From Escherichia phage ManiWeber_Bas99, in the sequence record PQ850618.1: a stretch of DNA of 64,000 nt, one strand, 5' to 3'. Both the position numbers and the translations under genes were made by a program. A model generated the notes under the pieces. That model worked only from the letters and a program-made list of their open reading frames with translations. It ran no database searches and was not told where the DNA came from. Positions 1-60,219 of the stretch are shown here, in pieces. Position 1 is the stretch's first letter. Each line of letters starts with the position of its first letter.

Positions 1-267
1 GGTCCAAATCTGAAGTCGCCGAAAGTCTTTATCGTGAACCAAAACGATAACTACTCTGGCGAGTTTGATGAACACAAGTGTATGCTTGGATTCGATTCAG
101 CAGAAGAAGCGAAAGAAGCTTATCAAGCATCATTTGGTAACGGTTGGAACGGATTCGACTCAATCCACGAATTAGATGTGAACTCATTCAAGGAGTGGTT
201 GAAGGGTGATTGCTCTCAAGCATACGGAGCACTCAATAATCCTACTAATTCACCGAAGCAAGGTTGA
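1..267 (+). CDS. 3' end of a gene continuing upstream of the window (possibly portal, by position only)
   Basis: Frame is open from base 1 to the stop at 265-267; sits directly upstream of the head morphogenesis gene. Confidence 0.35.
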   Translation, partial: GPNLKSPKVFIVNQNDNYSGEFDEHKCMLGFDSAEEAKEAYQASFGNGWNGFDSIHELDVNSFKEWLKGDCSQAYGALNNPTNSPKQG

Positions 268-268
268 T

Positions 269-1120
269 ATGGCTTTTAAAGCTTCGAAAAAACGTGAACG
301 CCGCTCACCCGATAGAGTCGGGCGCGGCAGTCCGATAATCCCATCCAACGCTATTGCGATGGCCTATCGTCGTGAGATGAAAGGTCTTTGCTATGCGATG
401 ATTGACGACTATCAAGCAGGAATTGCTGAGTGGCTTGAAAAGAAGCAGGTTAAAAAGTTCTTTGCGCAAGACTCTGCTGATTCAACTTTTCAGACCTTGA
501 TGAAGCGACTGCAACTGAAATGGGCAAAAGCTTTCGCCCGTGTCGGGTCAAAGATTGCCGCAGATTTCATCAAGTCAGTTGAAAAGGGTGCCACTTCTGC
601 TACATTTGCAAGTCTTAAATCTGCAGGAATAGAAGCGCCAAAAGCCACATATAATAAATTCGTTGAGAACACTCTTAAAACAAGCGAGACGTTCAACACG
701 ACTTTAGTGACTAAGGTTGGCGAAGATATTCACAACAGGGTGTACGAAGCGGTGATGCTTTCGCTGACTTCGCCAGACCCAGCGCAACAAGGCACGTCAG
801 GCATTCAGGCGGCATTAAGAAATGTAAAACACTTCTCTGCAAAACGCGTAGACCTTATCGCTAAAGACCAAACGAGCAAACTTTATTGCGTATTAAGTGA
901 TGAAAGGATGCGACAGAATGGCGTTGAGGAATTTGAGTGGGCGCATTCAGGAGCAGGCAAAGAGCCGCGAATATCGCATGAGCATGTCGATGGAATGAGA
1001 TTCAAGCTTGATGACAAACGCTTATGGGAAGTAGGTGGAGAACTTAAGTTCAAAAAGGGTGACATCGGTCCTCCTGGATGGGCGATACACTGCAAGTGCA
1101 GAAAAATACCAATTATCTGA
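269..1120 (+). CDS. Head morphogenesis protein (Mu gpF / SPP1 gp7-like)
   Basis: ATG at 269 follows AAGG; about 284 aa; C-terminal W..G..HCKCR motif resembles the Mu F-like family; sits in the head module. Confidence 0.55.
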   Translation: MAFKASKKRERRSPDRVGRGSPIIPSNAIAMAYRREMKGLCYAMIDDYQAGIAEWLEKKQVKKFFAQDSADSTFQTLMKRLQLKWAKAFARVGSKIAADFIKSVEKGATSATFASLKSAGIEAPKATYNKFVENTLKTSETFNTTLVTKVGEDIHNRVYEAVMLSLTSPDPAQQGTSGIQAALRNVKHFSAKRVDLIAKDQTSKLYCVLSDERMRQNGVEEFEWAHSGAGKEPRISHEHVDGMRFKLDDKRLWEVGGELKFKKGDIGPPGWAIHCKCRKIPII

Positions 1121-1127
1121 GGTCATT

Positions 1128-2048
1128 ATGACGATACCAATCAACACATTCCCTCTATCTGGACAAACTCCAGTCTTGCCTGCGGTGTATGCTAATGGCT
1201 TGGCGATTGTCTCAGAATTCACTTCTGATAAAAACTTGATTGTTCCACTGAGCCCGCCGCTTGCATCGGGGTACAACTCAGTAGGTCAATTCTTTATGAT
1301 TGGCAATGATGGCGATTCGACCAGCAAGCCTAATCTGACATTGTCTGTACCTAAGATGAACATCACCGACGTTCAAACTGGCTTGACTGCATCAACAATC
1401 ACCATTGCTTTTGGAGAAGCAGTGATTATAGGAATGGAGTCTGGAGGGTCCAAGAATGCTGTCGCCGTTAAGGTAGTCAAATCCAGCGACAACCAATACA
1501 CTTTACCAGCTGCGACGGCTTCCGTTCTCGGCGGCGTCAAAATAGGAAGCGGAATAAGCGTCGCAGGTGACGGTACAATTAGCGTCACTCAATACTCATT
1601 GCCGATTGCGTCAGCATCTACTTTAGGCGGCGTAAAGGTCGGTACAACTCTATCAATTGATGGTTCCGGTGTGCTTAACGCAGCGGCAAGCACCGTCCAG
1701 AATGCCACGAACAGTGTTAGCAATCCTCCAACCACTTTGGTTAATCTGGCAACATTAAACCTTCCTGCAGGCAAGTGGCTGGTCACGGCAAGCCAATTGA
1801 CCGTTGCAACAGCAGGCGTTCAAGCGAATACCGGAATTACAGTCAAATTGTCAACAAGCAATTCAGATATTACGGATGATGCATTTACCATGTCAGCTGG
1901 CATTCGGGCTGCAGGTCGTTTCGGCGGCAACATCCCAACAAAAGTAATTACTCTTGCCGCGCCTGGTAATGTGTATTTAAACTATCAGTGCACCGACGCG
2001 TTGACATCTACCGTTTACGGACAGATCACCGCAATTAAGCTGAACTAA
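1128..2048 (+). CDS. Fibre-like repeat protein (virion-associated)
   Basis: Internal ATG after GAGG; repeated LGGVK(I/V)G..(I/L)S(V/I).G.G motifs as in phage fibre repeat domains. Confidence 0.4.
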   Translation: MTIPINTFPLSGQTPVLPAVYANGLAIVSEFTSDKNLIVPLSPPLASGYNSVGQFFMIGNDGDSTSKPNLTLSVPKMNITDVQTGLTASTITIAFGEAVIIGMESGGSKNAVAVKVVKSSDNQYTLPAATASVLGGVKIGSGISVAGDGTISVTQYSLPIASASTLGGVKVGTTLSIDGSGVLNAAASTVQNATNSVSNPPTTLVNLATLNLPAGKWLVTASQLTVATAGVQANTGITVKLSTSNSDITDDAFTMSAGIRAAGRFGGNIPTKVITLAAPGNVYLNYQCTDALTSTVYGQITAIKLN

Positions 2049-2222
2049 AGAGGAAGTTATGCAAAAGATTATTCAGTCACGTTATGTTAAAGTGCGAAAT
2101 ATTAATTGCAACTCTTTGCTTTCTTGGAAATGGGCTGTTTATGACTCGATGTTGATTGGCGTTTTAGTGGCAGGAGTGCTATTTAATATTCACTGAATTC
2201 ATCGGCAAAGGATTGCCGAGAG

Positions 2223-2505
2223 TTTTATACGTATAATGACGTATCATCCGTATCAAGTAAGTTGTTGTTTTCAAAAGAATCTTACGGATGATACGGATGA
2301 TACGCGTTGCCGCCGTACTATATAGGAATTCAAATAAATTAATTTAAAATTATATATCTAATTTAATTTTATTTTTTTATAAACTCTTATATGTGAAAAG
2401 TATCCGTATCATCCGTATCATCCGTATCACACCAGTGATAGCGCGGCTTATACACCGATACGGATAAAAATACGCCTCATTTTATCCGTATCATCCGTAT
2501 CACAC
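2223..2505. repeat. Iteron module A: inverted arrays of the 9-mer TCCGTATCA flanking an AT-rich core
   Basis: GTATCATCCGTATCA about 2241-2255; reverse copies about 2282-2304; about 70 bp of more than 85% AT at about 2325-2395; three tandem copies at about 2401-2430 and two at about 2482-2503. Confidence 0.7.
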
Positions 2506-2611
2506 TAATAAAGGCGCGGCTATATCGGTTGTTATACATATTCAAACCATAATTATTGTTTGCCTAAGTTTTTTTCATTAGATATAATACACAATACTTA
2601 TTTGAGGGTGG

Positions 2612-4030
2612 ATGCGAATGCAAACGGCACGCGAAATTGACAAAAATGGATTCTTGACGATTATGGGTTGTCCGATTTCGTCATTTGGCATTTTTGATTA
2701 TTCTGCTGGTCAAGTTGGTCTTGATGGTGATCCGAATCGCATCGTAAAAGTCTATCGCCCTGAGTCAGCGGTGAAAGACCCCGAAGCGATAGATTCATTC
2801 AAAAATATCCCTTTCATCGACAATCACGAAATGCTTTCTGGATTTGAAGGTGATGAGGATAACACAGCACCCGAAGAGTATGGCGTTGATGGCGTTCTAA
2901 CTGGCAATGTTTATTATGACAAGCCATGGATGCGCGGCGACCTTAAAGTGTTTAGCCGTCGTCTGAAGAAGGCCATTGATTCTGGAAAGGTTGACTTGTC
3001 TTTGGGCTATGACTGTGAATTCATCATACAGTCTGGAGAGTTTGACGGGCAGCCGTATGAAGTGGTACAGACAACTCTTCGCGGCAACCACATTGCTCTC
3101 GTGGACGTTGGTCGAGTACCAGGTGCACGGGTGCTGGATGGTCGTTGCTTTGACCATCTTTGTTTGACGACTGTAACACCATCCAACGAGGATTTAGACA
3201 TGCCAAAACCGTTAAAAGGTAAAGCGCGTGATAATGCTGTTGAACAGCTGAAATCACTGATCCCTGCGCTCGAACAATTTCTGAATGAAGAGAGCACCGA
3301 AGCGGCTCATCAGGACGAAGTTGAAGTGAAAGCAGAAGAGAAGGATTCAACCGAAGAACGTGAAGAAGTGATGGTTGATCCAGAAGTTAAAGCAGAAGCT
3401 GAAGAAACTCCAGAAGGTGAAGAGAAGTTTGAAGTTGAAACTGAATCTCACGCTGGCGGCGAGCTTCCGCAACTGATCAGCCAAATCGAAGCACTTATTG
3501 CAAAACTGAAAGGTGGCGCGGTAGGTGATGAAGAAGAAGTTGAAGCCGAAGTCAAAGACGAAGAAGTTGAAGTCAAGGCTGAAGATGTATCACCTTGCGA
3601 CAAAGCTGAAGATGTGGTTAGCGGCCTGCAAAACAGCAACGTAAAGGGGGCTTCGGTCGAAAAAGATGACAAACCGACAAAAGCGGCGAAAGCGTCGCCA
3701 GGTCCAGCAAAAGGGGAACACTCAATGGCATCTGATTCAGCAGTTGCTGCTTTCTACGCTGATTCTGCTCGTAAGAATAGCCTCTACCAGCGCCTGTCTA
3801 AAGTTGTTGGTGCCTTTGATCATGCAACTATGGACTCCAAGTCCGTAGCGAAATATGGCGCTAAAAAGTTAGGCTTGAAGTGCGTTGATGGTGCTGAGTT
3901 TGACGTGGTGGATAATTATCTGCGCGGCGTTGAACACGGTCAAAAACAGCGTGTAGTCGCAAAACAAAAGGCCGCTGCGGATTCTGCAGCGACTGACGAA
4001 GCATTTGAAGCTTGGTTGAAAGGGGAATAA
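2612..4030 (+). CDS. Putative prohead protease / scaffolding protein
   Basis: 472 aa; highly acidic E/V/K-rich central region typical of scaffolds; sits between morphogenesis and capsid genes; RBS GAGGG. Confidence 0.4.
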   Translation: MRMQTAREIDKNGFLTIMGCPISSFGIFDYSAGQVGLDGDPNRIVKVYRPESAVKDPEAIDSFKNIPFIDNHEMLSGFEGDEDNTAPEEYGVDGVLTGNVYYDKPWMRGDLKVFSRRLKKAIDSGKVDLSLGYDCEFIIQSGEFDGQPYEVVQTTLRGNHIALVDVGRVPGARVLDGRCFDHLCLTTVTPSNEDLDMPKPLKGKARDNAVEQLKSLIPALEQFLNEESTEAAHQDEVEVKAEEKDSTEEREEVMVDPEVKAEAEETPEGEEKFEVETESHAGGELPQLISQIEALIAKLKGGAVGDEEEVEAEVKDEEVEVKAEDVSPCDKAEDVVSGLQNSNVKGASVEKDDKPTKAAKASPGPAKGEHSMASDSAVAAFYADSARKNSLYQRLSKVVGAFDHATMDSKSVAKYGAKKLGLKCVDGAEFDVVDNYLRGVEHGQKQRVVAKQKAAADSAATDEAFEAWLKGE

Positions 4031-4032
4031 AC

Positions 4033-4650
4033 ATGACTTTCCAAACTAGTGTAGGCCGTCAATATACAACTGGCTTTCCTGGCGACATCGTTCGCGACGG
4101 CCCACAGCGTGGGAAGCCAGGCCGAATTGCCAACGCTAACGAAGGCGCAAACGTAAACGCCATCAGCCGTGTGTTCGGTTTTAAGACTGACGTATCCTTA
4201 ATGGGTACTGGTCAAACCAAAACTTTGGGCGCGCAGGACTTTGAAGTTGAGCTGGGCGGCACTAACTACTACGGCATCCTCGGCAATAGCAAGCGTTACG
4301 CGCTGTATGGCAACTCTACTGGTCCTTTGGGTGCCAGCATGGTCCTGCCTCAATATAGCGAAGGCGAGTTCTATGATATGTGCACGGGCCTCGTAGTTGA
4401 AGTATTCAACCCAAGCACCAGTCCGCAGACGCTTAACTATGGCGACCTGCTTGCTTATGTACCTAAAGGCATTTCCAGCGGTAACAACCCGAACAACTTG
4501 CCTATTGGTGCAATTATCGCCTATACTGGCTCATTGCCAACTGGCATGGTTGCCATCCCAGGCGGTATTGTGATTGACCCGACGACTATTGCCCTTTCCG
4601 GCCCAAGCGTCCAGTCTTCCACTTATACCATTGTACAATTGACTCGTTAA
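4033..4650 (+). CDS. Putative head decoration / structural protein
   Basis: Internal ATG after AAAGGGG; about 205 aa; Gly/Thr/Ser-rich; immediately upstream of the capsid gene. Confidence 0.3.
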   Translation: MTFQTSVGRQYTTGFPGDIVRDGPQRGKPGRIANANEGANVNAISRVFGFKTDVSLMGTGQTKTLGAQDFEVELGGTNYYGILGNSKRYALYGNSTGPLGASMVLPQYSEGEFYDMCTGLVVEVFNPSTSPQTLNYGDLLAYVPKGISSGNNPNNLPIGAIIAYTGSLPTGMVAIPGGIVIDPTTIALSGPSVQSSTYTIVQLTR

Positions 4651-4664
4651 TAGGCAGGTGAATA

Positions 4665-5804
4665 ATGACTCGCATTAGCCAAACACACTCTCGCCTCCCA
4701 GCGAGCAAGGTGCGCCCTTTTGATATGCAATCCGTGACCGACGCGGCTGTTTCCCAGCTTGCGCGTATCGGTATTGTGTTTGATTCCGCGATTGTGCGTG
4801 ATCAGATTGAGCACTTAAACCGTGCAGGCGCTTTCCGCGTAGGTGACGCCGCATTTACTGCGCCGCAGACCACGCCATCAATCCCGACCCCGCTGCAGTT
4901 CCTGCAACAGTGGCTGCCTGGCTTCGTCAAAATCATGACCGCTGCCCGTAAAATTGACGAGCTGGTTGGTATTGACACCGTTGGTCAGTGGGAAGATGCA
5001 GAAATCGTTCAGGGCATCGTTGAACCAGCTGGCACCGCAGTTGAATATGGTGATTTCACCTCTATTCCTCTGGCAAGCTGGAACGTGAACTTTGAACGCC
5101 GTTCCATCGTTCGCGGTGAAATGGGCATGGCAGTCGGCATGCTGGAAGAAGGCCGCGCGTCTGCGATGCGTCTGAACTCTGCAGAGACCAAGCGCCAGCA
5201 GGCTGCTGTATCTCTGGAAATCATGCGTAACGCAATCGGCTTCTATGGTTGGTATAACGGGAACAACCGCACGTTCGGCTTCCTGAATGATCCAAACCTG
5301 CCAGCGGCAATGACTTCAAACACCACTTCCGGCTGGGCTACTGCGACCTTCCAACAGGTGACTGCAGACATCCGTTTGATGGTTCGTCAAATCCGTGTCA
5401 ACTCTCAGGATCAGATTGATCCAGAGAAGGTTGATATGACTCTGGCGCTGCCGACCAACTCTATTGATTGGCTGTCAAACACCACCGACTTCGGTATTTC
5501 TGTACGTGACTGGATCACCCAGACTTATCCGAAGATGAAGATCAAATCCGCACCGGAACTCAACGGCGCACTTGGCAGTGACCCGACTTTCCTGAATGTG
5601 GCATATCTGTACGCTGATCACATCGATTCCTCAATTGATGGCTCAAGCGATGATGGTTCCGTATTCAGTCAGCTGGTCCAGACTAAGTTTATGACTCTGG
5701 GCGTTGAGAAACGCGCTAAGAGCTACGTTGAAGACTACGCAAACGCAACAGCAGGCGTTCTGCTCAAGCGTCCTTTCGCAGTCGTCCGTATGACTGGTAT
5801 CTAA
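4665..5804 (+). CDS. Major capsid protein (candidate)
   Basis: 379 aa ORF after the scaffold-like gene; RBS AGGTG; followed by a strong hairpin; size and position typical of an HK97-fold capsid protein. Confidence 0.55.
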
Positions 5805-5827
5805 TTGCTGTGATTACACAGTAAAAC

Positions 5828-5862
5828 ACATGGGGCGTGGTCGAAAGGCTTCGCCCCATATC
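5828..5862 (+). other. Strong stem-loop directly after the capsid gene (no clear T-run)
   Basis: ATGGGGCG-(14 nt)-CGCCCCAT, 8-bp GC-rich stem; may attenuate or stabilise the capsid transcript. Confidence 0.4.
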
Positions 5863-5919
5863 AATAGACCTCAAGGGCTGTAGGGGCTTATCTGAGGCTT
5901 ATATAAATAGGACTACAAA

Positions 5920-6384
5920 ATGCCAAAATACATCGTTTCAACTATGTCTATGTCAGTCAACTACACTTTCTATACGGAAGTGAAAGAAAACCCGAATGCA
6001 AAAGCTGGTTCAGGCGCTCTTCCAAATATTCGCAAACAGATTCTGATCAAGGGCGGTGCTGGTCTTACTTCGGCAACTTCCGGCTTTGGTGAAATGGCAA
6101 AAGGCGCTGATGGTGCACCTTTGTGGACTCCTGAAGGAATCGTCACCGTTGTAAGCGATGCTGATTTTGAACATTTAAAAGATCATCACGTATTCAAGCA
6201 GCACCTTGAAAAAGGTCTGGTTAAAGTGGTTAACCACGACATCGTTGGCAATCATAAAGCTGTCGCTAAAGAAGTGCGCGGCATGTCAGATGACCCGTTC
6301 GCGCCTATGACGCGTGAGACGGCTGACAAGCGCATCAAGGTTAAATTGAGCGGCGAACAAGAAGATGATTTGTTCCGCGTTTAA
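5920..6384 (+). CDS. Hypothetical head/neck protein
   Basis: 154 aa ORF in the structural operon; no recognisable motif. Confidence 0.3.
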   Translation: MPKYIVSTMSMSVNYTFYTEVKENPNAKAGSGALPNIRKQILIKGGAGLTSATSGFGEMAKGADGAPLWTPEGIVTVVSDADFEHLKDHHVFKQHLEKGLVKVVNHDIVGNHKAVAKEVRGMSDDPFAPMTRETADKRIKVKLSGEQEDDLFRV

Positions 6385-6398
6385 ATAAGGTGAATGCC

Positions 6399-6854
6399 AT
6401 GTCATTAGATTACGAAAAGTTCAGAATAAAATTTCCACAGTTTGCTGATCAGGTAAAATTCCATGATACAACGCTTCAAGTATTCTATGACATGGCATGT
6501 GAATTTATTGAATCACAAGACAGTCCTTGTCGTGTTTTAAATGGCAGTAAATTGGAGCTGGCATTGGAATATATGACGGCTCATCTTTTATGCATAGCCA
6601 CAGACCAACAGGTGTCTGTGTCTTCTGGTGACGGAGTTGAACAAGGCGGCTTCGTGACTGGCGCAACAATTGGTGACATCACAGTAAACAAAGTCGCGCC
6701 GCCTGCGAGTGATGGCTGGGAATACTGGCTATCAAGCACTCCATATGGAATGGCGCTGTGGGCGCTTCTTCAAGCACTGGCCGTTGGCGGCTTGTCATTC
6801 GGCGGTCTTCCAGAGCGTGAAGGATTCCGTAAAATTGGTGGGGTATTCTGGTGA
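6399..6854 (+). CDS. Hypothetical head-tail joining protein
   Basis: ATG after AAGGTGA; tightly packed with neighbours. Confidence 0.3.
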   Translation: MSLDYEKFRIKFPQFADQVKFHDTTLQVFYDMACEFIESQDSPCRVLNGSKLELALEYMTAHLLCIATDQQVSVSSGDGVEQGGFVTGATIGDITVNKVAPPASDGWEYWLSSTPYGMALWALLQALAVGGLSFGGLPEREGFRKIGGVFW

Positions 6855-7237
6855 GGATTCCTGGCGTAAACTTATATCGAGTGGCGACAAAGGTTATCGG
6901 TCGCCAACCGATTCAATATTACATGTACAAGGGGCGCACCCTTGATAAGATGCGCAACTATGTCACTACATATGAAAAACCAATCACCTTGCTTGCTTCG
7001 GTGCAGGCTGTACTTCGAAACCAATACGTTGAGCTTGGTTTAGAGCTTCAAAAGAACTATGTTAAAATCTGGGTGGACAAAGACGTTGTTGACCTTGACC
7101 GCGACGCTTCCGGCGACTATTTTGTGTTTGGTGGCAAAACGTACAAGATGGAAGATGAAACGACATGGTTTGACCAAGATGGTTGGACGACTTGCCTTGC
7201 CGTGGAAGTAAAACAAAGCTTTCCAGTGTCTACTTGA
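6851..7237 (+). CDS. Hypothetical neck protein
   Basis: 4-nt overlap with the upstream gene (translational coupling). Confidence 0.3.
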   Translation: MRIPGVNLYRVATKVIGRQPIQYYMYKGRTLDKMRNYVTTYEKPITLLASVQAVLRNQYVELGLELQKNYVKIWVDKDVVDLDRDASGDYFVFGGKTYKMEDETTWFDQDGWTTCLAVEVKQSFPVST

Positions 7238-7244
7238 GGTGTAT

Positions 7245-7820
7245 ATGACAGATGTCGACCTGATTGACATGCTGGCAACGCGAATTGAAGAAGGTCTGGC
7301 GACGTATAGTCGTGCAGACCTTTCTGCTGTTCCAGTCCAGAAAAAATACCAACCGACTCAACAGGGCATTCCGACTGGTGATCAGATTTGGTTTAACCTT
7401 TTATTCTCAGTCCCATTCGGTTGGTCAATGAGAAAGAATGAATTTGTCAATGATGAATCTCAATTTGTTAATGGCAAATTTAAAGATATTGAAGATCAGA
7501 TATACGCAACACGTTTTCAAATTAGCGGCTTATTTCCAGAAGTTCCTGGCAATCCAGAAAAGCCTACGGCTAATGACGTTTTGACTTATTTAGCAAGATT
7601 CATAACCCACAAGGCTAATTTGAGGGATTGGTTTAAAAGGCATCAAGCTTCAGTATATAGAGTCGACATGAACAACAATGAAAAGTTCTATGACGACATG
7701 TCTCAGTTTGAATCGTTTCCTTCTTTTGATTTGGTGATCCTTCACAGAAACGCAATTTCAATTGACACGCCTGCTGTTGCAAGAGCTGTTAATAACGATT
7801 TGGGCGATATTCCGGTGTGA
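7245..7820 (+). CDS. Hypothetical neck/tail completion protein
   Basis: ATG after GAGGTG; structural operon context. Confidence 0.3.
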   Translation: MTDVDLIDMLATRIEEGLATYSRADLSAVPVQKKYQPTQQGIPTGDQIWFNLLFSVPFGWSMRKNEFVNDESQFVNGKFKDIEDQIYATRFQISGLFPEVPGNPEKPTANDVLTYLARFITHKANLRDWFKRHQASVYRVDMNNNEKFYDDMSQFESFPSFDLVILHRNAISIDTPAVARAVNNDLGDIPV

Positions 7821-7821
7821 T

Positions 7822-8307
7822 ATGACAAAATCAAAAATGATAGAGAAACAGATAAAGGCGCTTCAATCAATGAAGGGTCTTACTGTTGAGGCAGGATGGT
7901 TTGACTCTACCAGATACCCTTCAGAAACTGGTGGAGAAGGTATTCTGGTGTCAGAAGTTGCGCGGCTTAATGAATTTGGTCACATAGCCGTTTTGAACTT
8001 TGGACAAGGACCAGTCAGGGTAGAAGTGCCACCCAGACCATTCATGAGATACGCCTATGAATTATTCGTTAGTGAGCGCAGTGAAATAGAGAATAAAATT
8101 GCTAAAAAAATTTTTTCCGGTAAAATAGACGCTAGACAGGCATTGGGTCAAATTGGGCTTGCGATGGAAGCAAAGATTGTCGAATCAATTAAAAACGGAC
8201 CGTGGCAGCCAAACGCCAGATATACTGTACGTGTGAAGGGATTCGACAAACCTTTGATTCACACCAGCCTCATGTGGCAATCTGTCAGCAGCCAAGTCAT
8301 TAAATAA
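7822..8307 (+). CDS. Hypothetical neck/tail completion protein
   Basis: ATG at 7822 directly after the upstream stop. Confidence 0.3.
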   Translation: MTKSKMIEKQIKALQSMKGLTVEAGWFDSTRYPSETGGEGILVSEVARLNEFGHIAVLNFGQGPVRVEVPPRPFMRYAYELFVSERSEIENKIAKKIFSGKIDARQALGQIGLAMEAKIVESIKNGPWQPNARYTVRVKGFDKPLIHTSLMWQSVSSQVIK

Positions 8308-54349: not shown

Positions 54350-54685
54350 TTCATACGTATCATGACGTATCATTGGGCTATTGATTTATAAGGAAAAATA
54401 CGCTGATACGGATGATACGGATGCAAACATAATATATATAGAATTCCAGAAAATTAATTAACTCCATTTTGAATTAATTTAAATTAATTTTTTTCTACAT
54501 CCTCATACTTATACTAAACTTATATTTATACGTATTATCCGTAAGATATAAGTAAAAACAAAGACTTGCGGCAATACGGATGATACGTCATGATACGCTT
54601 CAACCAGCCAGCAGCGGCTAAGTCATTGATTTGCATAGCAAGCGGCGAAAGGGATGGATTTCTTTTATACGTATCAAACAGTACA
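54350..54685. repeat. Iteron module B: same repeat family and architecture as module A
   Basis: ACGTATCATGACGTATCAT about 54354-54373; reverse copies about 54404-54423 and 54574-54597; AT-rich core about 54424-54530; TTTTATACGTAT shared with module A. Confidence 0.7.
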
Positions 54686-54826
54686 CCACGCACCACGGTC
54701 CGTTATCCATTCAGCAATATGATTTGTGTACGTTTATAGCCATAATGAACATCAATCTGCACTTGAATATAATGTTCATCCATTGTATAATTCACACTAT
54801 TAATTTGCACTATGGGATTTTGCACT

Positions 54827-55300
54827 ATGAGTCAAGATTATGTAGCGATGCCTGAAGACTTTGAAGACCCGCGATTTGCAGAGCACAATCAGGCTTTATT
54901 CGATGAGTTCATTGACCTTGTTATTCAGGGCCATGACATGCGCGCAGCTTTTGCACTAGTATTTGGAATGGAAGTTGCAACGGATAACTACACTGGCCAG
55001 CGAATCCTTTGCACGCAACGCAATCCATACTACAAGATGCGCTTCAAAAAGCGTATGGAAGAGATGCCACTCAAGGATTTGTGGAGCGTAAAAGGTGCAA
55101 TTCACAATTTGGTTAAGCTTGTGCGTGATCCAGAAGTCGCAGCGTCAGCCAAGCTTAATGCTATTCGTGAACTGAATATCATCTACGGCATCACGATGAT
55201 TGATGAAAACGGCAATAGTAAAATGGGCCGTTCCATGGACGATTTCTACAAGGATTTTGGAGAGGCGGCCAAAGAAGGTGAGCAATTCTCCCGCCACTAG
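54827..55300 (+). CDS. Putative DNA-binding protein (possible terminase small subunit)
   Basis: ATG overlapping an 11-mer copy; about 157 aa; helix-turn-helix-like N-terminus; adjacent to iteron module B; assignment tentative. Confidence 0.3.
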   Translation: MSQDYVAMPEDFEDPRFAEHNQALFDEFIDLVIQGHDMRAAFALVFGMEVATDNYTGQRILCTQRNPYYKMRFKKRMEEMPLKDLWSVKGAIHNLVKLVRDPEVAASAKLNAIRELNIIYGITMIDENGNSKMGRSMDDFYKDFGEAAKEGEQFSRH

Positions 55301-55317
55301 CCAATTTGCACTATAAA

Positions 55318-55355
55318 ACGGCCCTAGAACACATCTTCTCCACTTCTAGGGCCAT
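55318..55355. other. Strong hairpin GGCCCTAGAA-(14)-TTCTAGGGCC
   Basis: Perfect 10-bp stem directly downstream of 54827-55300; weak T-tract on the minus strand. Confidence 0.4.
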
Positions 55356-55728
55356 CGGTAATACGACGGGGAAGGTTACAACCATAAACGCGTTAGAAAG
55401 TGTATTATTATAAGTCATCTTTTAGTCACTTTACGTAACAATTTACGACCTTCAGCCGTCCAATCGAACGACTCCACCAGCAGATTCGCACTATAACCTA
55501 AGATGATGCGCCCTTTCTCGTTATCGACCCGCCAACAAGTCTCGAATAGCATTCGATTTGCACTATTAACTATCGCCGCAACGCGCGTAGGGTAAACGCA
55601 ATTTGCACTATGGTCATAAAGGGATAAGGTGCGACCACTTCCGATGGACAACGTAGCGATGAGAATGAGCGTATTCATAAGCCACCAATTTGCACTATGA
55701 AAAGCGACCCCGAAGGGCCGCCATTCGA

Positions 55729-56355
55729 TTAGATAATCTGGAAGGTGTAGGACTTGTTGCCGAACTCGAAGTTCAAGCGCCCAGCTTCCTTAAGCTTCAT
55801 GCGGAAGCGAATGTGCTTGCTATCCGGTAATCCCAGCGCGGCGAACGCTACGCGGACCGATTTGAACTCGCCTACACCCTCGACCATGACACCGTTACGG
55901 GTAAGACGCTTTTGCGCCACTTCCTTATTATCCCAGCTTTTTGCAATACCTTCGCTATTCGAACGGCGATGGGAAGGAGTTCCATTTTGCACTACGCAAT
56001 TTGCACTATCGTTTAAACCGCTCTTAACGAAGGCTTCATATTCTTCGTCGGTCATCGCGTCGAGTTCTTCCTGGGTCGGCTCAGCCTTTTTAACGACCGC
56101 ACGCGCCTTATGCGTTTTTACATCGCTGGACACTTCCTCGCGCGACTTCGCGTCTGGGATGGGCGATTCGTTGGACGGCTCATCTAGCGCGTTTAAGGAC
56201 TCGATTAACGCGATGACGCGAGTCTCAGCGGTCCGGCGGTCCGAAAATTTCTTAATCGGCTTCGAACCGGAATTTGCATTATAAAATGCAACGAGGTCGG
56301 CGGTCTTAGTTGCGATAACGTCGCCGCTAGTCGAGAAACGATTTAAGCTAACCAT
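55729..56355 (-). CDS. Hypothetical protein in the CG-rich island
   Basis: 208 aa; strong RBS TAGGAG; codon and dinucleotide usage differ from the rest of the window; contains 11-mer copies. Confidence 0.4.
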   Translation of the reverse strand: MVSLNRFSTSGDVIATKTADLVAFYNANSGSKPIKKFSDRRTAETRVIALIESLNALDEPSNESPIPDAKSREEVSSDVKTHKARAVVKKAEPTQEELDAMTDEEYEAFVKSGLNDSANCVVQNGTPSHRRSNSEGIAKSWDNKEVAQKRLTRNGVMVEGVGEFKSVRVAFAALGLPDSKHIRFRMKLKEAGRLNFEFGNKSYTFQII

Positions 56356-56435
56356 AATAAACTCCTATTTGTTAGGGCGCTAGGCGCGAAAGAATTTTAT
56401 TAAAGCGCCGCGCACGACGCTCTAAAAATCCTCTC

Positions 56436-56720
56436 TTACGCTTCGACGAGGGAGAAGGTCTCAAATTCTTCTTCGCCCATAACGAGTAAGATATTACCGA
56501 TTTCGACCGCTTCGAAGAAATATCCGTTAACGTTTACTTCGAAGGCTTCGCGGTCCGATTCCGGTAGCGCCGCGTAAAGTTTAAAAGCCTCGGCGACCGT
56601 TACCCCACCCGCCTCGATAGTTTGGCCTACGTTCGCGGCGTAGACTTCGGATAAAATTTGTTTTACGCCGTAGTTCTCGACGATAGCGTTACGAATAGAA
56701 GAAACGTTAAGAATAGCCAT
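56436..56720 (-). CDS. Small acidic protein, island paralog A
   Basis: 94 aa; RBS AGGAG; paralog of 57355-57645 (NVNGYFFEAVEIGNILLV vs TINGFVYTITEIGGEYLAV). Confidence 0.45.
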   Translation of the reverse strand: MAILNVSSIRNAIVENYGVKQILSEVYAANVGQTIEAGGVTVAEAFKLYAALPESDREAFEVNVNGYFFEAVEIGNILLVMGEEEFETFSLVEA

Positions 56721-56744
56721 TTTAAACTCCTAGTTGGGAGAGGC

Positions 56745-56818
56745 GTTAACGACCTATTCGTTAACTCATCCCGTCCCGATATGAGTACATTATAATATAG
56801 TGTAGAAAAAAGTAAAGC
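56745..56818 (-). promoter_or_regulatory. Promoter and structured leader of paralog A (minus strand)
   Basis: Minus-strand -35 TTTACT (plus about 56811-56816), -10 TATAAT (plus about 56789-56794); leader hairpin TTAACGA-ATAGG-TCGTTAA (plus about 56746-56764). Confidence 0.5.
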
Positions 56819-56858
56819 ACTTTTTCGATAAAAATGCGATAAATTATTTTATCTTTTT

Positions 56859-56890
56859 TCTTTACTTCTTCGTACACTCGCGTATACTTG
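56859..56890 (+). promoter_or_regulatory. Promoter of paralog B
   Basis: CTTTACTTCTTCGTACACT block: -35 TTTACT, 16-bp spacer, -10 TATACT; back to back with the paralog A promoter. Confidence 0.45.
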
Positions 56891-56944
56891 TTTATATCGA
56901 GACGGGCGATGGCCCTTTCTTCTACTAGCATCGGGAGCTTTATT

Positions 56945-57247
56945 ATGACTACTTTAATCTCTTCCATCCTTACTTACGACGAAGACCGCTTAACCGTTCG
57001 CTCTCTTATCGCCGCCGTTAACGCGGAACTAGAATCTAGCGCCATTAAGGTCCGCGCGGTCGCCTTCATCGGCCTTTCCTTCGACGATATGAAGTATGCC
57101 GAACGTAGCGCCATCCGCTTCGCGAAGACCGACGACGAAGCCGTTACCCTTATCGAGACGGTTACGCCGCGCGGCGAAGCGTTAATTATCGTCGAGTATA
57201 TCGACGTAGAAGGCGATAAATCTTATAAACATTTTATCGCAGAATAA
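56945..57247 (+). CDS. Small acidic protein, island paralog B (distant)
   Basis: Internal ATG after GGGAG; about 100 aa; weaker similarity to A and C. Confidence 0.4.
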   Translation: MTTLISSILTYDEDRLTVRSLIAAVNAELESSAIKVRAVAFIGLSFDDMKYAERSAIRFAKTDDEAVTLIETVTPRGEALIIVEYIDVEGDKSYKHFIAE

Positions 57248-57256
57248 CGAAAAAGT

Positions 57257-57331
57257 GCTTTACTTCTTCGTACACTAAGACTATAATGTTTTATATCGAG
57301 AGGGGATGAGGTAGCGAATAGGTCGCTGCCC
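57257..57331 (+). promoter_or_regulatory. Promoter and structured leader of paralog C
   Basis: -35 TTTACT (about 57259-57264), 17-bp spacer, -10 TATAAT (about 57282-57287); leader hairpin GTAGCGA-ATAGG-TCGCTGC (about 57311-57329); about 80% identical to the paralog A leader. Confidence 0.5.
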
Positions 57332-57354
57332 TCCCGACCAACTAGGAGATTATT

Positions 57355-57645
57355 ATGATTACTTTAGCCGCTATCCGTTCCGCTCGCGTCGAGACTTCCG
57401 AAAACTCTAACGTATTTGGCGAAACCTTAGAGAGCGTTTATCTCTCTAACGTAGACGCAACTATCGAATCCATTTATGAGCCGATCAACTTCCTCGACCT
57501 TTACAAGTATCGCGATGAGGACATCGTGTCTTGCCGCGTAACGATCAACGGCTTCGTCTATACGATTACCGAAATCGGCGGCGAATATCTCGCGGTCCCG
57601 CAACTCGGCGGCGAAGTAACTTATTTTAAAATCGTCTCCTTATAA
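57355..57645 (+). CDS. Small acidic protein, island paralog C
   Basis: 96 aa; RBS AGGAG; paralog of 56436-56720. Confidence 0.45.
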   Translation: MITLAAIRSARVETSENSNVFGETLESVYLSNVDATIESIYEPINFLDLYKYRDEDIVSCRVTINGFVYTITEIGGEYLAVPQLGGEVTYFKIVSL

Positions 57646-57663
57646 TACCCTTCCGTTACTAAT

Positions 57664-57692
57664 AGGCCGCGCTTAGTCGCGGCTTTTCTTCG
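57664..57692 (+). terminator. Rho-independent terminator after paralog C
   Basis: GGCCGCGCTTAGTCGCGGCTTTTCTT: GC stem plus T-run. Confidence 0.55.
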
Positions 57693-57810
57693 CCCCTATC
57701 TCGGTGCGCTCCTACGCGAAAACTCCTTTATCCTTACCTTCGTCGTCGCATAATCTTCGTCGAGATGCTCCTTAGTTCGCATAACAGGTATTACGTTAAA
57801 TGGAGAACAT

Positions 57811-58095
57811 CGCGTAAGTCGTTGTTTTATATAGACACCTATATCGGACCGTTAGCGAGGGTCGCGTAAGTCGTTGTTTTATAAAGGCGCAAAACTTTCC
57901 CTTCGTTCCGAACTAAAACGAGGAATATGCCGACCCTTCGCCCGAAAATAGTACGCATGCGATATTACCGACATCTAGAATAATCCCTCCCGATATTATT
58001 ACGCGCTCAATCATTAGCTTTCGAATCATTATGCTGCATACTATTATGCGCCAAATCATTAGCCTTCGAATTGTAACGCTGGAAACTGTAACGTC
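57811..58095. repeat. Noncoding stretch dense in direct repeats
   Basis: 21-bp CGCGTAAGTCGTTGTTTTATA twice (about 57811-57831 and 57863-57883, 52 bp apart); AATCATTAGC(T/C)TTCGAAT twice (about 58008-58026 and 58053-58071); TGTAACG twice; no convincing ORF. Confidence 0.6.
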
Positions 58096-58351
58096 GATTG
58101 ATTATTGCGTTCGTGTGGTTTTTAGGACATGGGTCTTTTGGTGCGTTTTGCTACTTGATGGAATTTGCAGTACACTAATCAAAATACGACACATTTGGTC
58201 CACTAACTTTTCAAAGAAAAAGTCCTAGACAGTACCGTACTATTTTGTACCCACAGGAAATTTGCCGTACACTCCTGCGCGGCAGGCAAAAATAAAGGGC
58301 CGCACTAAGCGACCCACAACCCACGATTCACGGTTAAATCAGCAACACCCA

Positions 58352-58798
58352 CTATTCACTCTTATGGGCATCACCAAAGCCATCAGCAATCTGGCTGATC
58401 AACGACTCAATGGACACGGTTTTACCAATTGATCGAGCGGTAATAGCAAGCATATTATCAATCAAACCACGATTGACTTCACATGTTCCAGGCTTTGACT
58501 CATCTTTAGGACCACCAAAAAGCTGGTCGCGCAGACTTTCAAGAGAACGCTCAATATTTTCCAACTTCTCTTCTAAATCGGATTGGCGACGTAAAACCCA
58601 CGTCAAGTCACGGTTGCCAACTTCCAATCCATCAGAATAGCAAGGTGGAGCGTCAATTTTGATGCTGGAACCAAAAGCAATGCCGCTGCCTTTAGTATAT
58701 GTGTGGCTAATAGAATCATTTTTATTTGACATATCATTACCTTTAATATTTGGGTGATTAACAATAACTATAATAAAGCCGCATAGCGCGGCATTCAA
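58352..58798 (-). CDS. Hypothetical protein
   Basis: 148 aa ORF (possibly starting at internal MSNKND...); coiled-coil-like middle. Confidence 0.3.
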   Translation of the reverse strand: MNAALCGFIIVIVNHPNIKGNDMSNKNDSISHTYTKGSGIAFGSSIKIDAPPCYSDGLEVGNRDLTWVLRRQSDLEEKLENIERSLESLRDQLFGGPKDESKPGTCEVNRGLIDNMLAITARSIGKTVSIESLISQIADGFGDAHKSE

Positions 58799-60145: not shown

Positions 60146-60219
60146 CTCACTTGTTAACGTATAATGAGTATAACTTAATAGTGCATAAAGTAAAGGCGCT
60201 TTTCAGCGCCTTGAGTGAA

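What the first reader, a model, noticed from the sequence alone, without database searches (positions are those of the whole stretch)
56436..57692. Three small-protein cassettes sharing a promoter and a covarying leader hairpin in a CG-rich island
Three genes (56436-56720 minus, 56945-57247 plus, 57355-57645 plus) encode 94-100 aa acidic proteins. A and C are clear paralogs; B is more distant. Each sits behind the same promoter block (CTTTACTT..TACACT; -35 TTTACT, 16-17 bp, -10 TATAAT or TATACT). A and C also share about 110 bp of leader at roughly 80% identity. Inside it is a hairpin whose stem differs by compensatory changes (TTAACGA/TCGTTAA versus GTAGCGA/TCGCTGC) while the loop ATAGG is unchanged. 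That pattern is what a selected RNA structure looks like. A and B are transcribed divergently from back-to-back promoter copies. The surrounding 55.3-58.3 kb has CG-rich codon and dinucleotide usage unlike the rest of the window, which suggests a horizontally acquired module. A duplicated promoter-leader-small-protein unit of this kind may be an uncharacterised regulatory or anti-defence system; function cannot be read from the sequence.
Basis: seen in the sequence. Interest (0 to 1): 0.8.

Follow-up and report, generated by a model that had tools for sequence, protein, structure and literature searches.

The report
Phage early-gene island purged of TG/CA
The three small-gene cassettes are real and form the likely first-expressed module in the terminal repeat of an E. 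coli Wifcevirus phage, in a 2 kb tract almost stripped of the dinucleotides TG and CA, a feature I found described nowhere and which may help the incoming DNA escape host restriction enzymes.

Summary
There are three copies of a 19-nt promoter block (3 found, 0.04 expected). A and C share a 111-nt promoter and leader at 78% identity, although the proteins are only 29% identical. The leader hairpin has compensatory and G.U changes.

Three corrections apply:
- The window is a Wifcevirus, and the region lies inside its ~3.7 kb direct terminal repeat.
- The island is not G+C-rich. TG/CA is depleted 3.5-fold, and most of the CG and TA excess follows from that.
- B has no detectable similarity to A or C.

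The purged island recurs in four related phage lineages. In each it carries the same CTTTACT -35 block and small acidic orphan proteins poor in Met, Cys, Trp, His and Gln. This points to maintained selection, not recent import.

The best reading is an immediate-early host-takeover or anti-restriction module on first-entering DNA, comparable to the T5 first-step-transfer region. In BASEL phage Bas100 the repeat has no sites for the five restriction systems it resists, and seven for EcoP1, the only one that restricts it.

Protein functions, the hairpin's role and the agent behind the purge are still inferred.

The parts
54452..58124 (.). Direct terminal repeat (DTR) of the Wifcevirus genome, collapsed to one copy in this window
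   Evidence: Mapped from the PhageTerm-annotated DTR 1-3673 of phage Mansfield; its terS 361-834 corresponds to window 54812-55300. WFC and WFH are reported with a terminal repeat of about 3.7 kb (PMC6563267).
56000..58000 (.). TG/CA-purged island. This is the core; partial depletion extends left to about 55300.
   Evidence: TG+CA = 85 per 2 kb against a median of 292. Rho TG/CA is 0.34 against 1.18. Per-100-bp counts are 0-6 against 14.6 in background. The island is conserved in all Wifcevirus loci, rho 0.20-0.45.
56789..56817 (-). Promoter P_A (CTTTACTTTTTTCTACACT block; -35 TTTACT, 16 nt spacer, -10 TATAAT)
56721..56782 (-). A leader (5' UTR) with a two-tier hairpin. The apical stem-loop GUUAACGA-AUAGG-UCGUUAAC lies at 56745-56765. 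The Shine-Dalgarno sequence is GGAG.
   Evidence: MFE -19.9 kcal/mol, z -2.1. Covariation. The leader is unchanged in front of A, of A' (WFC), and directly in front of g208 (ECML-117).
56436..56720 (-). Gene A, 94 aa, acidic (pI 4.05). Orphan family shared with C.
55729..56355 (-). g208, a conserved 208-aa protein (phrog_4730), downstream of A and probably in the same leftward operon
   Evidence: phrog_4730, E 3e-89. Homologs in Pbunavirus, Myosmarvirus and others. Fused directly to the P_A leader in ECML-117.
55415..55678 (-). g87, a small ORF at the end of the leftward operon
   Evidence: annotated CDS in Mansfield and WFC
56860..56888 (+). Promoter P_B (CTTTACTTCTTCGTACACT; -10 TATACT), back to back with P_A
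56889..56944 (+). B leader. It has a short hairpin GGGC-GAUG-GCCC at 56904-56915 and lacks the apical AUAGG stem-loop.
   Evidence: the hairpin sequence varies among Wifceviruses, but a G/C hairpin persists at the same place
56945..57247 (+). Gene B, 100 aa, acidic (pI 4.65). Orphan found only in Wifcevirus-like phages.
   Evidence: A B-like 125-aa protein in L167 is judged by eye from its N-terminus.
57258..57287 (+). Promoter P_C (CTTTACTTCTTCGTACACT; 17 nt spacer; -10 TATAAT)
57288..57354 (+). C leader. The apical stem-loop GGUAGCGA-AUAGG-UCGCUGCC lies at 57310-57330. The lower stem GGGG/CCCUCCC spans 57303-57335. The Shine-Dalgarno sequence is GGAG.
   Evidence: Hairpin MFE -20.1 kcal/mol, z -4.2, 0 of 200 shuffles as stable. 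Covariation.
57355..57645 (+). Gene C, 96 aa, acidic (pI 4.23), paralog of A
57666..57690 (+). Intrinsic terminator after C (GCCGCG-CUUAGU-CGCGGC followed by UUUUCUU)
   Evidence: Read from the sequence. Annotated as a terminator at the homologous place in Mansfield and WFC.
57691..58000 (.). Non-coding tail of the island, also TG/CA-poor, holding a 22-bp direct repeat (57812-57833 and 57862-57884)
   Evidence: 4.2 TG/CA per 100 bp; sequence
54803..56281 (+). Array of 11 same-strand ATTTGCACTA repeats across terS, g87 and g208
   Evidence: 12 of 13 matches in the window fall within 54803-58172. The same array lies next to terS in L147 and L167.
58009..58063 (+). AATCATTAGC repeats at the inner boundary of the DTR
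   Evidence: similar repeats at the same place in L147 and L167

Best explanation
This is the likely immediate-early expression module of a Wifcevirus, an E. coli myophage distantly related to Pseudomonas PB1-like phages. It lies in the ~3.7 kb direct terminal repeat.

Shown:
- Three near-identical promoters matching the sigma-70 consensus (-35 TTTACT, -10 TATAAT or TATACT) are present. The phage encodes no RNA polymerase of its own.
- Each promoter is followed by a ~60-nt leader with a stem-loop and a GGAG ribosome-binding site.
- The promoters drive small acidic orphan proteins: leftward A, then g208 and g87; rightward B and C, ending at a terminator.
- The promoter and leader act as a conserved expression platform behind which ORFs are exchanged. 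Different Wifceviruses carry A, the unrelated-looking A', or g208 directly.
- The module sits in a ~2 kb tract from which TG and its complement CA have been removed on both strands, in coding and non-coding DNA. The purge extends to the -35 hexamer: TTTACT is free of TG and CA, whereas the consensus TTGACA is not. It also extends to protein composition.

Inferred:
- The repeat is the first DNA to enter and be expressed.
- Its proteins are host-takeover or anti-restriction factors that protect the rest of the genome.
- The entering DNA must therefore itself be invisible to sequence-specific nucleases. The TG/CA purge is selection for that invisibility.
- The hairpin is an RNA element in the 5' UTR. 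It probably stabilises the mRNA or keeps the ribosome-binding site open, and its invariant loop may bind a protein.
For: Identity and context:
- 28 Wifcevirus records match at 90-99% identity.
- The DTR is annotated in Mansfield and reported in the literature.
- The genome has its own DNA polymerase, primases and helicases but no RNA polymerase.

Promoters.

Platform with swappable ORFs.

Hairpin:
- 99% of cells are paired and 5 of 8 pairs change on both sides.
- 5 G.U cells fit only the sense strand.
- The same CGA-AUAGG-UCG top sits on a different stem in Myosmarvirus.
- About 35 unrelated occurrences of the 11-mer lack a stem.

Purge:
- Searches give the measurements.
- A model constrained only on TG/CA predicts CG rho 1.74 and TA rho 1.07, against 2.04 and 1.22 observed.
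- Met+Cys+Trp+His+Gln make up 2.9% of island proteins against 10.3% in background.
- The island is conserved in four lineages: Wifcevirus; Myosmarvirus; a 73-kb phage, L147; and L167, where 1 kb holds about 5 TG/CA, 3 of them start codons.
- Unrelated viral contigs never fall below rho 0.72.

Restriction link:
- I identified EcoCFT_II as CACAG by matching site counts in two genomes.
- In Bas100 the DTR has no sites for the five resisted systems (4.7 CACAG expected) and 7 AGACC sites in both orientations.
- The window shows 0 CACAG and 5 AGACC.

Precedents:
- T5 resistance to restriction is ascribed to functions in its early-injected region (PMC8594841).
- In Murciavirus, restriction motifs in the leading region decide sensitivity (PMC12455610).
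Against: - No transcript, timing or DNA-entry data exist for these phages. 'Immediate-early' and 'first to enter' are inferred.
- For four of the five resisted systems, the expected number of sites in 3.7 kb is 1.0 or less. Only the CACAG versus AGACC contrast is informative.
- The window's island holds one EcoKI site, at 57246.
- The gain in motif avoidance is modest: 18% of 5-mers are absent against 8% in controls. The enriched CG, TCGA, CGCG and CTAG motifs add palindromic sites. A near-absolute purge therefore looks stronger than generic restriction evasion would require.
- Only the inner ~2.1 kb of the DTR is purged, not all of it.
- T5's first-step-transfer DNA shows no such purge.
- A, B and C have no detectable relative of known function and only low-confidence structure models.
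- The hairpin is absent from B and from most cassettes of L147 and L167.
- One Wifcevirus variant has a stem mismatch and the loop AUGGG.
Confidence: 0.5

Rival explanations
1. One reading: the island is a horizontally acquired module from a donor with CG-rich codon and dinucleotide usage.
For: Dinucleotide and codon usage differ sharply from the rest of the genome. A, B and C are orphans without relatives outside this clade.
Against: - G+C is the same as background.
- The signature reduces to one constraint, no TG/CA.
- It reaches rho 0.2-0.35, far outside about 60 unrelated viral contigs.
- It even shapes the -35 hexamer and the amino-acid content.
- The island lies at the same place in four diverged lineages whose island proteins are only about 30% identical or unrelated. 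The signature has therefore been maintained, not imported.
Confidence: 0.05
2. The purge protects the early module from the phage's own early nuclease, or from a host-shutoff RNase, that cuts at TG/CA-containing short motifs. The rest of the genome would enter or be expressed only afterwards, as in a T5-like two-step transfer.
For: - The avoidance is near-absolute in L167, where 3 of about 5 remaining TG/CA in 1 kb are start codons. This suggests a very short recognition element.
- Repeat arrays flank the island, as the injection stop signal flanks T5 first-step-transfer DNA.
- From my own knowledge: T4 endonuclease IV cuts at TCA and spares T4's modified DNA.
Against: - No nuclease is recognisable among the island proteins.
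- There is no evidence of two-step entry.
- The outer 1.5 kb of the repeat is not purged.
- T5's own first-step-transfer DNA is not purged.
Confidence: 0.15
3. The hairpin is a protein-binding antitermination or regulatory site comparable to lambda boxB/nut: a conserved pentaloop on a covarying stem in early leaders, read by a phage or host protein.
For: - The loop AUAGG and the top 3 bp are invariant. These sequences were collected through that 11-mer, so this is partly by construction. The rest of the stem covaries.
- The hairpin is located just after early promoters.
- It is conserved between two genera.
Against: - No N-like arginine-rich protein and no boxA-like element were identified.
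- B lacks the hairpin.
- The C operon ends at a good terminator 20 nt after the stop codon.
- There is no Rfam match.
- One natural variant changes the loop to AUGGG.
Confidence: 0.1
4. The inverted repeat acts as DNA, as an operator for a dimeric repressor that shuts off the early promoters, and not as RNA.
For: It is a perfect or near-perfect 8-bp inverted repeat at +22 to +42, and early promoters need a shut-off. A CA-containing block, TACACT, is also conserved in the promoter spacers.
Against: - Five G.U cells would be C.A mismatches in DNA symmetry.
- The arms differ between A and C while the centre is conserved. Palindromic operators show the opposite pattern.
Confidence: 0.07
5. The purge is mutational, a context-specific transition process at CA/TG comparable to fungal RIP, acting on the duplicated terminal repeat.
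For: CA/TG is replaced almost only by CG and TA, that is, by transitions. The region is present twice per genome.
Against: - G+C is unchanged.
- Only part of the repeat is affected.
- Replacement by transitions is also what synonymous change at codon boundaries gives.
- Amino-acid usage and the -35 hexamer are adapted to the constraint.
- No such mutational process is known in bacteria or phages (from my own knowledge).
Confidence: 0.04

Closest known systems
Phage T5 first-step-transfer (pre-early) region in the left terminal repeat
   Same: - Early genes lie inside a long direct terminal repeat, and repeat arrays sit at the inner end (T5 annotation).
- T5 is largely insensitive to restriction, which is ascribed to functions of the early-injected region (PMC8594841).
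- From my own knowledge (Davison and Brunel 1979): T5 becomes EcoRI-sensitive only when a site arises in the first-step-transfer DNA. The site pattern in the Wifcevirus repeat follows the same logic.
   Different: - No protein homology to T5 pre-early genes was found.
- The repeat is 3.7 kb, not 10 kb.
- Two-step entry has not been shown.
- T5 first-step-transfer DNA has normal TG/CA (rho 0.8-1.07) and only a raised CpG.
SPO1 host-takeover module and T7 class I early region (strong host-RNAP promoters driving small early proteins such as Ocr)
   Same: There are several near-identical strong sigma-70-type promoters near a genome end, and small acidic proteins of about 100 aa. Ocr is an acidic DNA mimic that blocks type I restriction (from my own knowledge).
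   Different: - There is no sequence or fold match to Ocr, ArdA or any solved structure.
- The promoters are TG/CA-free variants.
- The conserved structured leader and the dinucleotide purge have no counterpart that I know of.
Leading-region motif avoidance in Autographiviridae (Murciavirus/Mme2I)
   Same: Only restriction motifs in the first-injected region decide sensitivity, and leading regions carry variable anti-defence genes (PMC12455610).
   Different: There, one specific type I motif is lost. Here, a whole dinucleotide pair is removed over 2 kb, in four lineages.
5'-UTR stem-loops of bacterial and phage mRNAs (ompA-type stabilisers; lambda boxB)
   Same: A hairpin starts about 5 nt from the predicted 5' end. 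It has a covarying stem and a conserved loop.
   Different: No function was tested, there is no Rfam family, and the loop sequence AUAGG matches no family I know.

Membership tests
Sigma-70-type promoter | -35 and -10 hexamers close to TTGACA and TATAAT with a 16-18 nt spacer | tested here: met
   TTTACT-16/17-TATAAT or TATACT, 9-10 of 12 matches, at three sites. The scan as a whole is not above chance (13 found, 8.4 expected), but the triplicated 19-nt block is (3 found, 0.04 expected).
Sigma-70-type promoter | Transcripts start 6-8 nt downstream of the -10 hexamer in vivo | not testable with these tools
   Needs 5' RACE or dRNA-seq.
T5-like first-step-transfer / pre-early region | Located in a long direct terminal repeat | tested here: met
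   DTR 1-3673 in Mansfield covers the module. A 3.7 kb repeat is reported for WFC and WFH.
T5-like first-step-transfer / pre-early region | Homologs of the T5 pre-early genes A1, A2 or dmp | tested here: not met
   No Pfam, PHROG or NCBIfam match for A, B, C or g87. g208 matches only phrog_4730, of unknown function.
T5-like first-step-transfer / pre-early region | Two-step DNA entry that depends on pre-early proteins | not testable with these tools
   Needs interrupted-infection experiments.
T5-like first-step-transfer / pre-early region | Restriction sensitivity set by sites in the early-entering DNA only | tested here: inconclusive
   Site counts in the Bas100 repeat match the published phenotypes for all 6 systems, but only the CACAG (0 found, 4.7 expected) versus AGACC (7 found) contrast is informative.
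DNA-mimic anti-restriction proteins (Ocr, ArdA, Arn) | Sequence or fold similarity to a known mimic | tested here: not met
DNA-mimic anti-restriction proteins (Ocr, ArdA, Arn) | Small and strongly acidic | tested here: met
   94-100 aa, pI 4.05-4.65, net charge -7 to -12. This is necessary but far from sufficient.
Lambda nut/boxB-type antitermination site | Short hairpin with a conserved pentaloop in an early leader | tested here: met
   8-bp covarying stem with loop AUAGG.
Lambda nut/boxB-type antitermination site | BoxA element and a cognate N-like protein | tested here: not met
   No boxA-like sequence is visible in the leaders (by eye). No N-like protein is annotated in the genome. There is no Rfam hit.
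Conserved structured RNA (generic) | Base pairs kept through compensatory changes in homologs | tested here: met
   99% of cells paired; 5 of 8 pairs change on both sides; 0 of 500 shuffles reach the score; slid controls 18-50%. Caveats: few independent lineages, and the sequences were collected through the invariant 11-mer.
A/C protein family including B | Detectable sequence or profile similarity of B to A or C | tested here: not met
   BLASTP finds no alignment. hhalign probability is 0.2%. Only the order of predicted secondary-structure elements is alike, in low-confidence models.

The most novel reading that the evidence does not exclude
The near-complete removal of one dinucleotide pair (TG/CA) from the first-expressed 2 kb of a phage genome is an intrinsic-immunity strategy. 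It would be aimed at an unidentified nuclease, of the host or of the phage itself, that recognises the CA:TG step or very short motifs containing it. The constraint is strong enough to dictate the promoter -35 hexamer and to exclude Met, Cys, Trp, His and Gln from the encoded proteins. The acidic orphan proteins made from this 'invisible' DNA would then be a new set of broad anti-restriction or host-takeover factors.
Probability: 0.3. Interest if true: 0.9.

Novelty: new variant of a known kind. Interest (0 to 1): 0.75.

Why it matters
- **An explanation for a published puzzle.** Wifceviruses resist every tested restriction system except EcoP1, with no known genome protection (PMC11990801). 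The module offers a concrete, cheaply testable explanation: sites in the terminal repeat decide sensitivity, and its small proteins protect the rest of the genome.
- **A possibly new signature.** A local purge of one dinucleotide pair, conserved in four phage lineages, appeared in no paper found by two full-text searches. It could serve as a sequence-only marker of first-entering or first-expressed phage DNA and of the anti-defence genes it carries. It may also point to a nuclease specificity that has not been recognised.
- **A compact expression part.** The conserved promoter and leader platform is a strong early expression unit that tolerates ORF exchange.

Tried and rejected
**Protein annotation**
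- Pfam, PHROGs and NCBIfam scans of A, B, C and g87 found nothing above threshold.
- PDB sequence search found nothing.
- hhalign of the A/C profile against the B profile found no relation.
- The exhaustive profile search of 1.84 billion representatives found only A, C, one further 103-aa relative, and spurious Ig-repeat hits.

**RNA and sequence searches**
- The Rfam scan of 54400-58400 gave no match at E <= 1.
- The IMG/VR scan for the degenerate promoter block returned mostly single chance hits.
- The IMG/VR scan for TATAAT followed by the hairpin 11-mer returned about 60 chance hits. They served as a negative control for stem pairing.
- One extra hairpin, in L075, has a 13-bp stem but lies outside any purged island. 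Its homology is undecided.
- The metagenome scan for the 19-mer found only further Wifcevirus contigs and 2 chance hits.

**Hypotheses tested and set aside**
- DNA hypermodification as the cause of the purge or of restriction resistance. The 'thymidylate synthase' is an ordinary ThyX, and the neighbouring genes encode a PNKP-type phosphatase and a short-chain dehydrogenase. Nothing indicates a thymidine-modification pathway. A TG-context modification would also not cover EcoRI or EcoRV sites.
- T5 first-step-transfer DNA as a second example of the purge. It is not purged.
- Generic avoidance of palindromic type II sites. This is rejected because CG-, TA- and CTAG-containing palindromes are enriched.
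- Host primase (CTG) site avoidance, transcription-pause avoidance and codon optimisation were considered only by reasoning. They were set aside because both TG and CA are depleted on the same strand, in non-coding DNA too, and because E. coli's favoured codons CTG and CAG are the most avoided.

**Literature**
- Two searches for dinucleotide depletion in phage terminal or early regions found no description.
Full report
**What the window is.** The 3 kb around the finding matches 28 phage records at 90-99% identity. All are Wifcevirus: E. coli and Shigella myophages of 66-72 kb such as WFC, WFH, ECML-117, Mansfield and BASEL Bas98-101. Every gene in the region is annotated 'hypothetical protein'. 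In phage Mansfield, a direct terminal repeat (DTR) predicted by PhageTerm spans record positions 1-3673. Using the small terminase gene as anchor (Mansfield 361-834 corresponds to window 54812-55300), the repeat is window ~54452-58124. Korf et al. report a terminal repeat of about 3.7 kb for WFC and WFH (PMC6563267). The finding therefore lies in the right-hand half of the terminal repeat. The genome encodes its own DNA polymerase, two primases and helicases but no RNA polymerase, so transcription depends on the host enzyme.

**Checking the observation: ORFs and promoters.** The three ORFs are present and acidic, with pI 4.05, 4.65 and 4.23. The block CTTTACTTnTTnnTACACT occurs exactly three times in 64 kb against 0.04 expected. 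Each copy forms a sigma-70-like promoter, TTTACT-16/17-TATAAT (A, C) or TATACT (B). A and B are back to back.

**Checking the observation: relatedness of A, B and C.** The A and C upstream regions are 87/111 identical (78%) from upstream of -35 to the ATG. The A and C proteins are only 29% identical (E 7e-5). B shows no similarity to either by BLASTP or by profile comparison (probability 0.2%). Only the order of predicted helices and strands is alike, in low-confidence models (pLDDT 59 and 68). 'A and C paralogs' stands. 'B a distant paralog' is not shown.

**The leader hairpin.** Both hairpins fold as described. A is GUUAACGA-AUAGG-UCGUUAAC. C is GGUAGCGA-AUAGG-UCGCUGCC, at -20.1 kcal/mol, z -4.2, with no shuffle as stable. 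Other Wifceviruses supply intermediates:
- TTAGCGA/TCGTTAA, a G.U pair, in ECML-117.
- UCGCUACC, with A-U in place of the window's G.U, in most C leaders.
- GCUAACGA/UCGUUAGC, a further double change, in one Logan assembly.

Erwinia phage TropicalSun (Myosmarvirus) has the same top, CGA-AUAGG-UCG, on yet another stem, GUCGGGCGA/UCGCCCGGC. It lies in the leader of a small acidic ORF.

**Covariation statistics.** On 12 distinct sequences, 95 of 96 cells pair and 5 of 8 pairs change on both sides. No shuffle of 500 reaches the covariation score, and sliding the partner drops pairing to 18-50%. Five G.U cells fit only the transcribed strand, which argues for RNA and against a DNA palindrome. About 35 unrelated occurrences of the 11-mer in viral contigs have no stem. 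Four caveats apply:
- Few independent lineages are represented.
- The top three pairs are fixed by the way sequences were found.
- One variant has an A.A mismatch and the loop AUGGG.
- B leaders lack the apical stem-loop and keep only a short G/C hairpin that corresponds to the lower stem of A and C.

There is no Rfam match.

**A platform with exchangeable ORFs.** In WFC-type phages the same P_A promoter and leader precede a different 104-aa gene, A'. A' is related to a 94-aa island protein of another phage lineage (32% identity, E 1e-4). In ECML-117 the leader is fused directly to g208. The A/C family has only three clusters among 1.84 billion representative proteins. B occurs only in Wifcevirus-like contigs. 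No family, solved structure or fold match was obtained for A, B or C. g208 (phrog_4730) is conserved in Pbunavirus and relatives.

**What the 'CG-rich island' really is.** G+C is 0.46-0.47, as in the rest of the window. The anomaly is a 3.5-fold depletion of TG and of its complement CA:
- Rho is 0.34 against 1.18.
- There are 85 TG+CA in 56001-58000 against a median of 292 per 2 kb.
- CG rho is 2.05, and TA rho is 1.22 against 0.67.

A minimal-change model that fixes only TG/CA and the base composition predicts CG rho 1.74 and TA rho 1.07. Most of the CG and TA excess is therefore a by-product of the purge. All eight TG-containing trinucleotides are depleted, CTG/CAG most of all at 0.12. Both TG and CA are low on the sense strand of each gene, at all codon positions, and in promoters, leaders and the non-coding tail. 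This points to a double-strand DNA-level constraint.

**How far the constraint reaches.** TTTACT is a -35 hexamer free of TG and CA, whereas the consensus TTGACA contains both. Island proteins of four lineages contain 2.9% Met+Cys+Trp+His+Gln against 10.3% in background ORFs. These are the residues whose codons need TG or CA. CTAG, almost absent from the rest of the genome, is 12-fold enriched.

**The island is conserved, not imported.** All Wifcevirus loci show it, with rho 0.20-0.45. Sharply bounded islands of the same kind occur in three further lineages:
- Myosmarvirus: TropicalSun record 61.8-63.5 kb has 3-9 TG/CA per 200 bp against about 30.
- A 73-kb IMG/VR phage, L147 positions 6600-8250.
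- A Logan assembly, L167 positions 4400-6200. There, 1 kb holds about 5 TG/CA, three of them ATG start codons.

Each carries CTTTACT(T)-N17-TATAAT promoters. L167 has the identical 19-mer block. Each also carries small acidic ORFs next to a g208 homolog and terS. Pbunavirus and several other relatives have no island within 8 kb of g208. About 60 unrelated viral contigs never fall below rho 0.72 in 1.5 kb. T5's first-step-transfer DNA is not purged (rho 0.8-1.07), though its CpG is raised.

[quoted passage not shown] They are very sensitive to EcoP1_I while 'highly resistant' to EcoCFT_II, which has a similar number of sites (PMC11990801; site counts in its S2 table). I identified EcoCFT_II as CACAG. 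It is the only 5-mer giving 87 sites in Bas100 and 58 in Bas02, and the control AGACC gives 90 and 49 as tabulated.

In Bas100, the repeat has 0 sites for EcoKI, the EcoAI type (EcoCFT_I), EcoRI, EcoRV and CACAG. For CACAG, 4.7 are expected (Poisson P about 0.009). It has 7 AGACC sites in both orientations. The window has 0 CACAG, 5 AGACC and a single EcoKI site. Sensitivity therefore tracks sites in the repeat for 6 of 6 systems, although only the type III contrast is statistically informative. The same logic applies in two known cases:
- T5, whose restriction insensitivity is ascribed to its early-injected region (PMC8594841).
- Murciavirus, where only motifs in the leading region matter (PMC12455610).

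The ThyX, PNKP-like and dehydrogenase genes give no sign of a DNA hypermodification pathway.

**Most likely mechanism.**
- Shown: repeated consensus-like host promoters; structured leaders with a covarying RNA hairpin; exchangeable small acidic ORFs; location in the terminal repeat; and a conserved DNA-level purge of TG/CA.
- Inferred: the repeat is the first DNA to enter and be expressed. Its proteins take over the host or block restriction for the rest of the genome. The module must itself escape sequence-specific attack, which selects against TG/CA.
- The hairpin begins about 5 nt from the predicted 5' end and pairs a G-rich strand with an anti-Shine-Dalgarno-like CCUCCC strand. It would therefore stabilise the mRNA or keep the real ribosome-binding site free. 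The conserved loop suggests a bound factor.

**Weak points.** There are no expression or entry data. The gain in motif avoidance is modest, with 18% of 5-mers absent against 8%. Palindromic CG and TA sites are enriched. Only part of the repeat is purged. The near-absolute purge in L167 hints at a more specific, unknown agent. That agent could be a phage early nuclease or RNase from which the module must be immune, or an unrecognised host defence. I keep these as rivals.

**Novelty and verdict.** As an early, promoter-dense module of small proteins in a terminal repeat, this is a new variant of a known kind (T5 pre-early region, SPO1 host-takeover module, T7 class I genes). None of the papers returned by my two full-text searches describes a dinucleotide-pair purge like this one. 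The purge is conserved across four lineages and is strong enough to shape promoters and protein composition. It gives a testable explanation of a published puzzle. Its 'CG-rich horizontally acquired island' reading, and the kinship of B to A and C, are not supported.

Noticed in passing
window 54803-56281 (+ strand); also L147 8520-9180 and L167 3172-4162: Eleven same-strand copies of ATTTGCACTA (up to 1 mismatch) run through terS, g87, g208 and the spacers. A twelfth lies at 58163, and only one copy lies elsewhere in 64 kb. The same array sits next to terS in two other lineages. It may be terminase (pac-type) binding sites, an injection-stop signal or regulator sites.
   Followed up: partly
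window 58009-58063; L147 6400-6560; L167 6200-6450: AATCATTAGC-like repeats lie exactly at the inner boundary of the terminal repeat, and in the same position in two other lineages. They are candidate end-formation signals.
   Followed up: partly
window 57812-57833 and 57862-57884: A 22-bp direct repeat (CGCGTAAGTCGTTGTTTTATA) occurs in the non-coding, TG/CA-poor tail after the C terminator.
   Followed up: no
window 56799-56817(-), 56860-56878(+), 57258-57276(+), 60194(-): The promoter spacers keep a CA-containing block, (G)TACACT, in DNA otherwise purged of CA. It resembles the array motif TGCACTA. A fourth CTTTACT-type promoter at 60194(-), outside the island, has TGCACTAT in its spacer. 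This may be an operator for shutting off the early promoters.
   Followed up: partly
window 56000-58000: CTAG occurs 18 times in the island, against 1.5 expected from the rest of the genome, where it is strongly avoided.
   Followed up: partly
L169 (phage T5) 1-10219: T5's first-step-transfer terminal repeat has raised CpG (rho 1.25-1.5) compared with the adjacent genome (0.5-0.9), without TG/CA depletion. This is a weaker compositional peculiarity of early-entering DNA.
   Followed up: no
L075 6408-6440 (IMGVR_UViG_3300034198_002835): An unrelated-looking viral contig has TATAAT, then a 13-bp hairpin with the same CGA-AUAGG-UCG top, then GGAGCTTTAAAATG. It is not in a TG/CA-poor region. Homology or coincidence is undecided.
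   Followed up: partly
L072 5906-6409 (TropicalSun gp93) and L069 661-1731 (gp103): Myosmarvirus carries two g208-family paralogs. One is a short copy inside the purged island behind a CTTTACTT promoter. The other is a long copy with an N-terminal extension in normally composed DNA.
   Followed up: no
window 57246-57258: The only EcoKI site of the repeat (AACGAAAAAGTGC) overlaps the conserved upstream element of promoter P_C. It is absent from the Bas100 repeat.
   Followed up: no
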